Shown: positions 12,001 through 15,000 of the stretch, piece by piece
Numbering within the stretch: the stretch's first letter is position 1
How the letters are laid out: every line of letters begins with the position of its first letter
Assembly: GCF_057098645.1 (NCBI RefSeq)
Contig: NZ_CM169472.1
DNA length: 64,000 nt
Reading direction: 5' to 3' (one strand)
Program-made: the position numbers

Positions 12001-15000
12001 AACGCCTGGCGACTGCATTGATTACGACCGGATCAGAGATGACATCATGCAGGACGCGGAGAAATTTAATATCAGGCTGGTGGGCTTTGATACGTGGAAC
12101 GCCACGCATCTCAGAACGCAATTACAGGGGGCAGGTTTTGAGGTGGAGCCGTTCCCGCAAACCTACCTCAGATTCAGTCCGGCGGCGAAATCGTTCGAAG
12201 TTTTTGTTAACCGCAGGGTGATTGTGCATCGTGGCGATCCGGTGTTGTCCTGGTCGATGAGTAACGTCGTGATGCAGAGTGACGCGAACGCCAATATCAA
12301 GCCGAACAAGAAAAAATCACCGAACAAGATAGACCCGAGCGTGGCGGCGCTGATGGCGTTTGGTACATTCCAGGCAGAGCATGAGGATTTTGCTTTTGAT
12401 ATAAGCGACAGCCACCGCCAGAAACTGGAAGAATTTAGCGGGGTGTAATGAGGTCAGCAGCATGACAGAAGCCGAAATAACGGGATTAATCCGCCGCGTT
12501 GCCGGAATCAGCCAGCAGGCTGACGAACAGGCCACGCAGCCGGACAGCGTGACAGCCGAAAACTATGCGCGTGTTGTTGCTGAGGTGATGCGCCGTGATG
12601 GTATAGAACTTAATGGCGTGGATATGCGCAACATACGAACCAGAGTTCTTTAGTTGCTGGCCTACCGTCGCCGCGTGGAGATGTATCGGGAGAAGGAGAA
12701 AATAACGTACCACTGGAAGAAGCCGGAGCGGTTGCGGCGGTAACTGGTTGATATTCCCGACGGCCCAAAAATGGGTTGGCTACACCCCTCACAACTACGA
12801 CATTTTCGCAGTTTAATTAATGGTCAGCTTAATCGCTAACCCGCTGATATTTTAGGAAACCTCAATTTGAGGAAGTCGGCGCGGTAACTTGCTGAACTTT
12901 AAGCAAAGCGCAAAATTGCGCTTGCTGAATAATCATTATGATTACGCAGATGATTAAGGAATGACCGAAGGCGGAAATTCGCCTGTGGTTAATGGGGGAG
13001 TTGCAGATCTGCAACTCGACCATGAAACTACGGAAACTACCCGTAGTTTGGGTAGTAAGAGTAACACCCAGATTTTGGGGCTTACTCGTGATACCCAAAT
13101 TTGGGGTATCGGTGGCAACCATAACGACTTTCGTTACGGTTGATGCTTTTACCCCATTGGGGGAAAGGTATTACGATAATCATAACACCTACCGAACAGG
13201 TAAAGCCCACCAGCCTGATTAACGTTTAACCGGAAAAAAATTCCGGTAGGTGGGGATCCCCATATAGACATTAACGCCCCTCATGAATTGGTGTGCTTCC
13301 CCCTGGAAAGATGATCCGCCTGTATATTTCTTGTGTCTATTTGTTCCACGTTGTTTCATACAGTGCACCGAACGGTGTAGTCACTGGTGTAGTCATTTTG
13401 CGATTTTTGGCACTTTTTGTGGTGTTAATTATTTAATTAAATCAATGTGTTATGCGAAATAAGTTATATATAACAGCAATAAATAATGCGAGAATAAACG
13501 GCACGATGATCTCGGCGGCAAAACGGATACCGCAGAGAATAATGACCAGCATTCCCAACATAATGACGATTTTTAGGCCATTGAGCGTGATGATCGGCTT
13601 TGCCATGCTTGTCCCCGTTTTTTCTTCCTTTGCTAATAATAATGTCTTTTTCGCTCCGTCATCATAACGAAAATCAAACCGCTCAGGTAAAGAAGTGAAA
13701 ATATTTTGAGTTAATTCTTAAGCTATGATACAAATCAGGCGTGTTCAACTACCGAGGACAATTATCATCCGCGATGACGAGAAGCAACACTGCGGATAAT
13801 TGTAATATTATGGACAATTTGTTCAGGACGTTATTTTCTACATTTACCCATCTTCGTACCTCATCCACTATCTTGCTCGTAGGTGAGCAGCACTGGCGCA
13901 ACGCGCTTTAGTCCTTTCTTCTGCCAAAGCTTGCGCTAAGCGCGGGGCTTGACCACTTTACTTTGGTTTCGCTGAATTAAGCGAAAATTAAAATAATTCT
14001 CTTGCAGGAGAAGGACAATGTATATTTATTGGATTTTATTAGGTCTGGCTATTGCTACAGAAATTACCGGTACGCTGTCCATGAAATGGGCGAGCGTCAG
14101 TGAGGGAAATGGCGGTTTTATTTTAATGCTGGTGATGATTTCTCTGTCGTATATATTTCTCTCTTTCGCCGTTAAAAAAATCGCCTTAGGCGTAGCTTAT
14201 GCGCTGTGGGAAGGTATCGGTATTTTATTTATTACCTTGTTTAGCGTTTTGTTATTCGACGAAAGTTTATCGCTGATGAAAATTGCCGGGTTAACCACCC
14301 TGGTCGCCGGGATTGTGTTGATAAAATCAGGTACCCGTAAAGCGCGTAAACCTGAACTGGAGGTGAACCATGGCACAGTTTGAATGGGTTCACGCCGCCT
14401 GGCTGGCATTGGCAATCGTGCTGGAAATCGTTGCTAACGTCTTTTTGAAATTTTCTGACGGCTTTCGTCGCAAAATATTTGGCTTGCTCTCCCTGGCGGC
14501 GGTGCTGGCTGCCTTTAGTGCGCTTTCTCAGGCCGTTAAAGGGATCGACTTGTCTGTCGCTTATGCATTGTGGGGCGGGTTTGGTATTGCCGCCACGTTA
14601 GCCGCAGGTTGGATCTTGTTTGGTCAACGGTTAAATCGTAAAGGCTGGATTGGCCTGGTCTTGCTGTTGGCTGGAATGATCATGGTGAAACTTGCCTGAT
14701 GAAGACGCTGCCCGCGCTGTCGGGCAGCGTTTGAACATTATTTTTGCGACAGTTGATCCAGCTTGTCGCGAAAACCGGTAACAGAAATGGCCCGGTTATC
14801 GGCGCGCCAGCGATCTTTCGCGGCAGGAGCCGAACTTTGCACCCCAATTAATTGCCAGCCGTCATCGGTATGCAACATCAGAGGCGAACCGCTGTCACCC
14901 GGCAAGGTATCGCACTGATGTGACATCACCGACGTTTGCGCCCAGCCAGTCACTTCACAGTTTTGATGACTGTACAACGTATCGAGATGATCTTCAGGGT

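What the first reader, a model, noticed from the sequence alone, without database searches (positions are those of the whole stretch)
12850..13145. Dense run of palindromes and stem-loops in the ~800-bp noncoding island tail
Between the last ORF (end 12653) and the right junction no long ORF exists. Within 300 bp there are at least six dyad or stem-loop elements, including a perfect 20-bp palindrome GAGTTGCAGATCTGCAACTC and a 9-bp stem AAACTACGG/CCGTAGTTT. This density is unusual for intergenic DNA. It could be a structured regulatory RNA (P4 immunity is RNA-based), a packaging site or an array of protein-binding sites.
Basis: seen in the sequence. Interest (0 to 1): 0.5.

Follow-up and report, generated by a model that had tools for sequence, protein, structure and literature searches.

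The report
Conserved hairpin module in satellite tail
The palindrome cluster is real and is a sharply bounded 118-bp noncoding module that many E. coli phage satellites (PICIs) carry after their last late gene; it is more conserved than that gene, it is not the packaging site, replication origin or attachment site, and its function is still unknown.

Summary
Window 12,876-13,175 is the second most structured locus in the 64 kb (fold z -7.9 on +, -8.6 on -). The island is a capsid-forming PICI (cf-PICI) inserted in tqsA. Its packaging genes are nearly identical to those of the prototype EcCIEDL933.

The dyads form a discrete 118-bp module, "M1" (12,998-13,115): the 20-bp palindrome plus an 88-nt compound hairpin. 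M1 occurs in 705 of 5,426 complete E. coli genomes. It always lies downstream of a conserved 93-aa ORF ("p93"), in one orientation, whatever the integrase, primase or packaging type. It is 83-97% identical where p93 is 68-89%.

M1 is not cos: EcCIEDL933 has identical TerS and an identical hnh-terS gap but lacks M1, and lambda-type PICIs keep cos upstream of terS. It is not the origin, whose iterons lie at 4,674-4,870. It is not the att arm (13,374-13,395). It matches no Rfam family, phage, plasmid origin of transfer (oriT) or paper.

Around it lie direct repeats that fit the IHF consensus. In most relatives M1 is followed by + strand terminators. My best guess (about 0.37) is a structured 3'-UTR element of the late operon. 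A DNA-level protein-binding array (about 0.28) is not excluded. Covariation is uninformative.

The parts
12462..12743 (+). Last late-operon ORF 'p93' (phrog_1561, function unknown). In this window a TAG at 12,651-12,653 truncates it to 63 aa; relatives have GAG there and encode 93 aa.
12738..12755 (+). Iteron 1, CGGTAACTGGTTGATATT, overlapping the p93 stop codon. It contains a perfect IHF consensus (TATCAACCAGTTA on the - strand, 12,741-12,753).
12834..12851 (+). Iteron 2, CGCTAACCCGCTGATATT. One mismatch to the IHF consensus.
12860..12872 (.). Small palindrome CCTCAATTTGAGG between iterons. The same grammar (hairpin followed by iteron) recurs in all related tails.
12882..12899 (+). Iteron 3, CGGTAACTTGCTGAACTT. 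Two mismatches to the IHF consensus.
12906..12923 (.). Palindrome AAGCGCAA-AA-TTGCGCTT, conserved at this position in all tails.
12925..12949 (.). Dyad CTGAATAATCAT/ATGATTACGCAG.
12964..12989 (+). M0: a degenerate copy of the GC-rich hairpin 'T1' that follows M1 in most relatives. Here it lies upstream of M1.
12998..13115 (+). M1: the sharply bounded 118-bp conserved module. It is present in 705 of 5,426 complete E. coli genomes and always sits downstream of p93 in this orientation.
12998..13017 (.). Perfect 20-bp palindrome within M1. The arms are near-invariant (one arm position differs in the helper-embedded type); the centre varies (GATC, GATT, AATT).
13024..13049 (.). GAAACTAC twice in direct orientation, plus the inverted GTAGTTT, forming the 9-bp stem. 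One 9-bp unit is missing in some relatives.
13038..13108 (.). Long compound hairpin with 33-nt arms, 76% complementary. In the minimum-free-energy fold it extends to an 88-nt hairpin.
13090..13110 (.). Terminal hairpin GATACCC(loop)GGGTATC. The loop varies among relatives; the stem is kept, with two compensatory changes.
13116..13270 (+). M3: further hairpins, including AACCATAACG/CGTTACGGTT at 13,117-13,141 and CACCTACCG/CGGTAGGTG at 13,186-13,252. Shared with Sp7/EcCIEDL933.
13207..13214 (-). Chi site GCTGGTGG on the - strand.
   Evidence: read directly from the sequence
13374..13395 (+). GGTGTAGTCA twice in direct orientation, 12 bp apart. Likely integrase arm-type sites of attR; conserved in Sp7 and L002.
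13440..13462 (.). Perfect IHF consensus AATCAATGTGTTA (13,440-13,452) and the right junction with the truncated tqsA gene.
4674..4870 (+). Context, not part of the tail: the canonical PICI origin. Six AAAAGTGGGGAG iterons flank an AT-rich core directly after the primase gene.
10325..10446 (+). Context, not part of the tail: the hnh-terS gap, the likely cos site of this cf-PICI. It is G-rich like the HK97 cos end and nearly identical to EcCIEDL933.

Best explanation
The dyad cluster is the core of a conserved, satellite-specific noncoding tail that follows the last late gene (p93) of E. coli PICIs. The tail is a mosaic: direct iterons that fit the IHF consensus, small hairpins, and larger modules. 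The finding itself is module M1 (12,998-13,115), made of a 20-bp palindrome and an 88-nt compound hairpin.

I think M1 most likely acts as RNA on the + strand, as part of the structured 3' untranslated end of the late (capsid and packaging) operon transcript. A block of very stable stem-loops there could set the transcript's 3' end or stability. It could act as a barrier to 3' exonucleases or as an RNase III-type processing site. It could also insulate the operon from neighbouring units: accessory genes, or int across attP in the circular form.

**Shown:** the module's existence, boundaries, distribution, orientation, conservation and fold stability; the + strand terminators directly downstream in most relatives; and the exclusion of cos, ori and att.

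**Inferred:** that M1 is transcribed and that it works as RNA.
For: - **Position and orientation.** In 98 of 98 copies M1 has the same orientation as p93 and starts 40-790 bp after its stop, most often 40-60 bp.
- **Terminators follow it.** In the commonest tail type M1 is followed within about 25 nt by the GC-rich hairpin T1. All T1 wobble variants are G-T on the + strand (three independent changes, no A-C). A second hairpin, T2, follows, with a T6 run on the + strand only. M1 therefore lies between the last stop codon and the operon's terminators.
- **Fold stability.** The + strand folds somewhat better than the - strand: z -4.9 against -3.8 in the window scan, and mean -51.1 against -47.3 kcal/mol over 26 variants.
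- **Hairpin-like variation.** Loops vary while stems are kept in the terminal hairpin and in the 13,117-13,141 hairpin. There are compensatory C-G to T-A (four sequences) and A-T to C-G changes.
- **No promoter** in or beside M1.
- **Constraint.** M1 is 83-97% identical where the adjacent p93 gene is 68-89% identical, and 39-84% at fourfold-like sites.
- **Independence.** Its presence does not depend on packaging type or primase type. That fits a generic transcript-end element.
Against: - **No covariation signal.** Only 2 pairs change on both sides, no more than in shuffles, and 18 of the 42 pairs never vary.
- **No strand bias within M1.** One-sided changes give about 6 G-U events against about 5 A-C events on the + strand (my count).
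- **Weak fold in the most divergent copies.** The helper-embedded satellites fold weakly (-32 to -40 kcal/mol) yet keep sequence blocks, including loops. That points to sequence-specific recognition.
- **This window's tail type is different.** The T1-like hairpin M0 lies upstream of M1, and no canonical terminator follows.
- **Perfect palindromes and repeated short motifs** (AAACTAC, TTTGGGGTA) are also typical of protein-binding DNA.
- **No transcript data** were available.
Confidence: 0.37

Rival explanations
1. M1 is a DNA-level architectural or protein-binding array. The IHF-type iterons bend the DNA. The dyads and short repeats of M1 are bound by a host or satellite protein. The resulting nucleoprotein complex assists replication (like the second cis region, crr, of P4), recombination, or exchange of tail cassettes.
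For: - The iterons match YAANNNNTTGATW at 1.25 perfect sites per 600-bp tail in one orientation. The other orientation has 0.065 and shuffles 0.03. The four N positions vary among copies.
- M1 is conserved at sequence level, including loops, and contains a perfect 20-bp palindrome and repeated 7-9-mers in both orientations.
- In four loci two M1 copies bracket a second origin-like cassette: GCGGGTTAT iterons on both sides of an AT-rich core. In L167 that cassette is missing from its usual place beside the primase gene.
- There is no strand bias in wobble changes.
Against: - No candidate binding protein co-varies with M1. Its presence is independent of integrase site, primase type and packaging type. 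p93 diverges to about 61-63% identity to the L001 protein while M1 stays above 83%.
- p93 shows no recognisable DNA-binding fold.
- The M1 motifs occur nowhere else in the island, and the origin iterons differ from them.
- The functional prototype EcCIEDL933 lacks M1.
- The loops of two hairpins vary freely, which is unusual for operator-type sites.
Confidence: 0.28
2. M1 has no function of its own. It is a mosaic repeat of the BIME/REP kind, or a recombination linker, that persists in a dispensable tail. It looks conserved because satellites exchange it often.
For: - M1 is polymorphic for presence and absence, and EcCIEDL933 works without it.
- The boundaries are sharp, with at least three right-flank and four left-flank types.
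- A 313-bp indel (M1 plus T1 plus T2) is flanked by 9-bp GCTGGTGGG direct repeats that contain Chi.
- Module order is permuted: M0/T1 lies before M1 in one tail type and after it in another.
- Hybrid junctions exist in L138 and L167.
Against: - M1 is more conserved than synonymous sites of the adjacent gene in every pair compared, including the oldest split: 0.83 against 0.39.
- 65 of 68 unique complete tails keep M1 or the alternative module M2.
- M1 was never found outside the p93-tail context.
Confidence: 0.1
3. M1 is an independent trans-acting regulatory RNA gene, such as a P4-like immunity RNA or a small RNA cut from the 3' UTR.
For: - The fold is very stable and the sequence is conserved.
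- In the commonest tail type, M1 plus T1 would form an RNA of about 175-190 nt ending at a terminator.
- Small RNAs processed from prophage operon transcripts are known, for example DicF (my own knowledge).
Against: - No promoter and no Rfam family.
- No complementarity of 10 nt or more to the rest of the island.
- No terminator after M1 in this window.
- No long conserved single-stranded seed is evident.
Confidence: 0.08
4. M1 encodes a small protein on the - strand: window 13,122 down to 12,862 (86 aa), or MRNDISSTDT... (49-72 aa) in relatives.
For: - One - strand frame stays free of stop codons in 34 of 38 variants.
- The 9-bp indel is in frame.
- Two flank types share the start MRNDISSTDT.
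Against: - Between the two most divergent types there are 7 synonymous and 13 nonsynonymous changes, hardly better than the other five frames.
- Variable columns are spread evenly over codon positions, 24/21/24.
- The C-termini and lengths are not conserved.
- There is no clear ribosome-binding site.
- The NCBI annotation pipeline (PGAP) annotates nothing there in most genomes.
Confidence: 0.05
5. M1 is a packaging site (cos or pac), an origin, or part of attP.
For: It lies in the region where cos sites of classical PICIs were reported, and next to the terminase genes.
Against: - **cos.** EcCIEDL933 has identical TerS and an identical hnh-terS gap but no M1. The G-rich gap resembles the HK97 cos end. 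Lambda-type satellites with the same tail have cosQ-cosN upstream of terS. No lambda cosN lies in any tail. There is no similarity to 50,697 phage genomes.
- **ori.** The origin iterons are at 4,674-4,870 and are unrelated to the tail motifs.
- **attP.** The arm-type repeats are at 13,374-13,395, and M1 sits at variable distance from them and is optional.
Confidence: 0.03

Closest known systems
Structured 3'-UTR and terminator regions of phage operons, such as the lambda sib retroregulator with the tI terminator
   Same: Both are long imperfect hairpins on the coding strand, beyond the last gene and next to the attachment site, and are plausible RNase III substrates. In most relatives, intrinsic terminators lie directly downstream.
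   Different: There is no sequence similarity. sib acts on int, which lies upstream of it, only in the non-integrated form; here the upstream gene is p93 in both forms. No transcript or RNase III evidence is available. In this window no terminator follows M1.
BIME/REP mosaic intergenic elements of E. coli, including the RIP class that binds IHF
   Same: Both are mosaics of palindromic units and IHF-consensus sites at operon ends. Both show variable module order and copy number, and a possible dual RNA and DNA role.
   Different: The sequences are unrelated. M1 is confined to PICI tails behind p93 and is not dispersed in the chromosome. M1 is 118 bp and far more conserved than a typical REP copy.
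P4 ori plus crr (cis replication region)
   Same: The satellites encode P4-family primases, and one primase type uses the P4 type I iteron TGTTCACC. In some relatives a second iteron and AT-rich cassette sits in the tail, bracketed by M1 copies.
   Different: M1 contains none of the four origin iteron types, and its presence does not depend on primase type.
cos sites of PICIs and of their helpers (lambda cosQ-cosN-cosB; HK97-type cos with HNH)
   Same: M1 lies near the terminase genes in the late region of a satellite. IHF-type sites are also part of lambda cosB.
   Different: There is no cosN or cosQ similarity. The real cos candidates lie elsewhere. M1 is absent from the functional prototype.

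Membership tests
Lambda-type cos site | cosN (GGGCGGCGACCT) preceded by cosQ and followed by TerS-binding R elements, upstream of terS | tested here: not met
   No cosN with up to 2 mismatches in the tails of the loci held (the window and L001-L005). In relatives with the same tail, cosQ-cosN lies upstream of the Nu1-like terS.
HK97-type (HNH-dependent) cos site | Site between hnh and terS that is required for packaging by the cognate HNH, TerS and TerL | tested here: not met
   M1 lies 550 bp downstream of terL. EcCIEDL933/Sp7 has 100% identical TerS, about 99% identical TerL and HNH, and an identical hnh-terS gap, but no M1. The packaged DNA ends themselves cannot be determined with these tools.
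PICI or P4 replication origin or crr | Clusters of the iteron recognised by the element's own primase, flanking an AT-rich region | tested here: not met
   The origin with six AAAAGTGGGGAG iterons is at 4,674-4,870. None of the four primase-specific iterons occurs in M1, and M1 presence is independent of primase type.
attP/attR arm of a tyrosine integrase | Arm-type direct repeats and IHF sites at a fixed, short distance from the crossover core, specific to the integrase | tested here: not met
   The arm-type repeats GGTGTAGTCA (two copies) and an IHF consensus lie at 13,374-13,452. M1 is 260 bp or more away, is optional, sits at variable distance, and is shared by satellites with five or more integration sites.
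Known RNA families (Rfam 15), including P1/P4-type C4/CI immunity RNA, and tRNA/tmRNA | A score at or above the family's gathering threshold | tested here: not met
   No match with E up to 1 in the tail within the scan of 1-16,000. Only two chance-level hits with E up to 10 in 12,700-13,470. ARAGORN finds nothing.
Conserved RNA secondary structure | Base pairs maintained through compensatory changes, more often than in controls | tested here: inconclusive
   93% of cells are paired, but only 2 pairs change on both sides, no more than in shuffles, and 18 of the 42 pairs never vary. Sequence diversity is too low.
Intrinsic (Rho-independent) terminator | GC-rich hairpin followed directly by a U run | tested here: not met
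   M1 and its flanks in this window contain no such site; the only hit is at 12,729-12,746. The neighbouring modules T1 and T2 in relatives do meet the definition on the + strand.
Protein-coding gene (small ORF on the - strand) | Excess of synonymous change, third-position bias, conserved length and termini | tested here: not met
   7 synonymous against 13 nonsynonymous changes. Variable columns fall 24/21/24 over codon positions. The termini vary.
Mimic of a helper cos/pac site or of a plasmid oriT | Sequence similarity to the site of the exploited phage or plasmid | tested here: not met
   No match in 50,697 phage records at E up to 1. Only 3 matches in 72,556 plasmid records; the one examined (NZ_CP148328.1) is a circular PICI.
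IHF-binding site array (the iterons flanking M1) | Match to WATCAANNNNTTR with unconstrained N positions; actual binding by IHF | tested here: inconclusive
The consensus is met: one perfect site in this window's tail, a 45-fold enrichment in one orientation over 77 tails, and variable N positions.

The most novel reading that the evidence does not exclude
M1 is a portable cis-acting DNA element specific to phage satellites. It could be a recombination or priming site that marks cassette boundaries in the PICI tail. Two M1 copies bracket a second replication-origin cassette in four loci, and M1 plus its terminators behave as an indel flanked by Chi-containing 9-bp repeats. On this reading satellites would shuffle origins, terminators and accessory (defence) genes through M1, somewhat like integron attC sites. 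Alternatively, M1 could be a satellite-specific regulatory RNA that acts on the helper or the host.
Probability: 0.12. Interest if true: 0.8.

Novelty: new member of a known kind. Interest (0 to 1): 0.45.

Why it matters
PICIs and cf-PICIs are major vehicles of gene transfer and of anti-phage defence in E. coli. Their published maps treat the stretch after the last late gene as empty.

This work shows that the stretch has a conserved grammar: IHF-type iterons, hairpins, and a 118-bp module present in 13% of complete E. coli genomes. The module is under tighter constraint than the neighbouring gene. It is independent of the integration, replication and packaging modules.

Whatever it does, it is a satellite-wide cis element that has not been described. 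It is a precise deletion target, and it is a sequence marker that finds PICI tails regardless of satellite subtype. The work also gives a testable location for the cf-PICI cos site, the hnh-terS gap.

Tried and rejected
- **Rfam and tRNA scans.** Rfam on 1-16,000 and a permissive scan on the tail found nothing. ARAGORN found nothing.
- **Exact 16-mer scan of 100,044 species genomes.** Only chance hits outside E. coli, so the scan gave no diversity.
- **Lambda cosN search in the tails.** None found.
- **Is p93 the packaging-redirection protein Rpp, or a TerS?** No match to solved structures by sequence or by profile. No Pfam family. The only PHROG match is a family of unknown function. AlphaFold models are weak (pLDDT 61 and 69) and Foldseek gives no match.
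- **Distant p93 homologues, to gain diversity for covariation.** The family is very narrow: 36 representative clusters, nearly all E. coli. The most divergent tail (L258) has the same iteron and hairpin grammar but no M1.
- **Small ORF on the - strand.** Rejected on substitution pattern.
- **Antisense targets of M1 within the island.** None of 10 nt or more.
- **oriT or helper-site mimicry.** No phage or plasmid similarity.
- **Association of M1 with packaging or primase type.** None.
- **Full-text search for the M1 sequence in papers.** No hit.
- **The 'hypothetical gene 1792'.** Its mutation lowers EcCIEDL933 transfer, but I could not tell whether this gene is p93.
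Full report
**1. What the window holds**

Window positions 1 to about 13,460 are most of a capsid-forming phage-inducible chromosomal island (cf-PICI) inserted in tqsA. The same island in strain FORC_069 (locus L001) is annotated, in order, as:
- integrase, AlpA-type regulator, Icd-like genes, DUF4222, P4-family primase, SSB, PerC;
- HK97-type capsid, protease, portal, head closure protein, connector;
- HNH, P27-type TerS, TerL;
- a 93-aa hypothetical protein;
- about 700 bp without genes, then a truncated tqsA.

I call the 93-aa protein p93. Prophage Sp7 of strain Sakai (L003) corresponds by position, size and gene order to the published prototype EcCIEDL933 of the sister strain EDL933, and it has a related tail. 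That Sp7 equals EcCIEDL933 is my inference, not a tested identity. Relative to L001, this window and Sp7 have TerS 100% identical, TerL 99.6% and 98.6%, and HNH 99.3%.

**2. The observation**

The 20-bp perfect palindrome (12,998-13,017), the 9-bp stem (13,025-33 and 13,041-49) and at least ten further inverted repeats are present.
- The stretch 12,985-13,160 folds with z -7.9 on the + strand and -8.6 on the - strand. No shuffle out of 200 does as well.
- In a GC-corrected scan of the whole 64 kb, the region ranks second on the + strand.

One correction: the 'last ORF' ends at 12,653 only because of a TAG that replaces GAG. The p93 frame runs to 12,743.

**3. Anatomy of the tail**

Aligning tails from six satellites and 38 unique copies from IMG/VR shows a mosaic.

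*Iterons.* After p93 come direct repeats of CGGTAACTnGyTGATATT. The window has three (12,738, 12,834, 12,882); I count about seven in Sp7.
- They fit the IHF consensus read on the other strand (YAANNNNTTGATW).
- Over 77 unique tails there are 1.25 perfect sites per 600 bp in that orientation, against 0.065 in the other and 0.03 in shuffles.
- The four N positions vary among copies.

*Small hairpins.* Short palindromes lie between the iterons.

*Module M1.* Then comes a sharply bounded module, M1, at 12,998-13,115: the palindrome, the AAACTAC repeats and a long compound hairpin. Sequence similarity stops abruptly at both borders. There are at least three right-flank and four left-flank types.

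*The far right end.* It holds GGTGTAGTCA twice (13,374-13,395) and a perfect IHF consensus (13,440-13,452) next to the junction. This is the likely att arm.

**4. Distribution and constraint**

- M1 alone matches 802 places in 705 of 5,426 complete E. coli genomes.
- It matches nothing in 50,697 phage records.
- Among 72,556 plasmid records it matches three. The one I examined is a circular 10.79-kb PICI.
- The exact 16-mer occurs outside E. coli only at chance level.
- In the loci collected, every copy lies downstream of p93 in the same orientation: 98 of 98, starting 40-790 bp after the stop. Three further copies lack p93 in the locus because of truncation or deletion.
- M1 occurs in three satellite types: cf-PICIs, satellites with a Nu1-like TerS and lambda-type cos (including helper-embedded ones inside a lambda capsid gene), and satellites with neither. 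It occurs with all four primase types.
- It is optional. Sp7/EcCIEDL933 and the Nissle 1917 PICI lack it and carry another module, M2. Of 68 unique complete tails, 65 have M1 or M2.
- M1 is 83-97% identical between satellites whose p93 genes are 68-89% identical, and 39-84% at fourfold-like sites.

**5. What it is not**

*Not cos.* Four points rule it out.
- Sp7 has the same terminase and an hnh-terS gap identical but for one substitution and a 1-bp indel, yet no M1. EcCIEDL933 transfers efficiently.
- The gap (10,325-10,446) has the G-run, CCCC and CCGCC features of the HK97 cos end, and HK97 has the same hnh-cos-terS layout.
- Satellites with the same tail but lambda-type packaging carry cosQ-cosN upstream of their terS. 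In Nissle a second, inverted copy lies before p93. This matches the published cos1 and cos2 sequences.
- No lambda cosN is present in any tail.

*Not the origin.* Six AAAAGTGGGGAG iterons around an AT-rich core sit right after the primase gene (4,674-4,870). The tail motifs occur nowhere else in the island.

*Not the att arm.* See section 3.

*Not a known RNA or tRNA*.

*Not convincingly a gene.* A - strand frame stays open, but changes are 7 synonymous to 13 nonsynonymous and spread evenly over codon positions.

*Not mentioned in any searchable paper*.

**6. RNA or DNA?**

*For RNA on the + strand:*
- M1 has a fixed orientation behind the last late gene.
- In the commonest tail type, M1 is followed within about 25 nt by hairpin T1 (CCGAGGGCGGAATTCCGCCTTCGG, then UUACUUAUUG). 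All T1 wobble variants are G-T on the + strand. Hairpin T2 follows, with a T6 run on the + strand only. M1 there lies inside the 3' UTR of the late operon.
- The + strand folds somewhat better than the - strand.
- Two hairpins have variable loops, conserved stems and compensatory changes.

*Against RNA:*
- The covariation test is no better than its controls.
- One-sided changes in M1 show no strand bias.
- The most divergent copies fold weakly but keep sequence blocks, including loops.
- In this window a degenerate T1 (M0, 12,964-12,989) lies before M1, and no terminator follows.

*For DNA:*
- The iterons fit the IHF consensus.
- M1 contains a perfect palindrome and repeated short motifs in both orientations.
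- Four loci have two M1 copies about 435 bp apart that bracket an origin-like cassette of the Sp7 iteron type. In L167 that cassette is missing from its usual place beside the primase gene.

I rank the 3'-UTR RNA element first (0.37) and the DNA array second (0.28). The other rivals are a functionless mosaic repeat (0.10), a trans-acting small RNA (0.08), a small ORF (0.05), and cos, ori or att (0.03).

**7. Comparison and novelty**

The nearest analogues are phage 3'-end structures such as lambda sib and tI, the BIME/REP mosaics with IHF sites, and the P4 ori plus crr arrangement. M1 shares only layout with them, not sequence, and it fails every membership test I could run. It is best filed as a new, satellite-specific member of the general class of conserved structured intergenic or 3'-UTR elements, function unproven.

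**8. Limits**

- No transcript, binding or end-mapping data were available.
- Sequence diversity is low because p93 and M1 are essentially confined to E. coli and Shigella.
- Part of the copy set was collected with an exact 16-mer, which inflates conservation of that block. The unbiased BLAST and locus L261 show the same picture.

Noticed in passing
window 12,651-12,653: The conserved late gene p93 carries a premature TAG here. L001 and all other relatives have GAG and encode 93 aa. This copy is probably a pseudogene, and the island may be partly defective.
   Followed up: partly
window 4,674-4,870; L001 5,910-6,199; L002 7,166-7,453; L003 6,499-6,870: Each of four primase types has its own origin iteron: AAAAGTGGGGAG (window), CTGTCTACC (L001), TGTTCACC (L002) and GCGGGTTAT (L003/Sp7). 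From memory, TGTTCACC is the same as the P4 type I iteron.
   Followed up: partly
window 10,325-10,446: The G-rich hnh-terS gap is nearly identical to that of Sp7/EcCIEDL933 and resembles the HK97 cos end. It is the likely cf-PICI cos site, which the papers I could read do not map.
   Followed up: partly
L083 4,527-5,083; also L101, L139, L167: Two M1 copies about 435 bp apart bracket an origin-like cassette: three GCGGGTTAT iterons, an AT-rich core, then three inverted iterons. In L167 this half of the origin is absent from beside the primase gene, so the origin is split, as with P4 ori and crr.
   Followed up: partly
window 13,207-13,214 (- strand); L002 about 11,990 and 12,290; L178 about 12,330: Chi sites (GCTGGTGG) are frequent in the tails. 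In L002-type tails Chi forms the left border of M1. A 313-bp block (M1 plus two terminators) is flanked by 9-bp GCTGGTGGG direct repeats relative to the Nissle PICI.
   Followed up: no
window 58,368-58,456: This is the most structured locus of the whole window (z -6.6 on both strands). It is a near-perfect inverted repeat of about 35 bp, TTACAACATCCTACAAGCTTACAACATTAACAGGTGC and its complement, just after a terminator-like hairpin. Rfam gives only chance microRNA hits.
   Followed up: partly
L178 10,830-10,890 and 11,700-11,780: The Nissle 1917 PICI has two lambda-type cosQ-cosN sites in opposite orientation flanking its Nu1-like terS gene. Their sequences resemble the published cos1 and cos2 of EcCICFT073.
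   Followed up: partly
L257 (NZ_CP148328.1, 10,790 bp, circular): A record deposited as a plasmid is a complete circular PICI: integrase, AlpA, primase, protease-capsid fusion, DUF1441 protein, p93 and M1. It appears to be an excised or episomal satellite.
   Followed up: partly
window 1,126-2,295: A 389-aa ORF whose C-terminal 90 residues match PHROG 'transcriptional repressor' families. At the same place L001 has an Icd-like pseudogene and a different gene layout.
   Followed up: no
L258 5,016-5,060: In the most divergent tail (p93 45% identical), ACTACG occurs four times at about 11-bp spacing near the right end. It resembles the AAACTACG repeats inside M1 and could be an excisionase or integrase binding array.
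   Followed up: no
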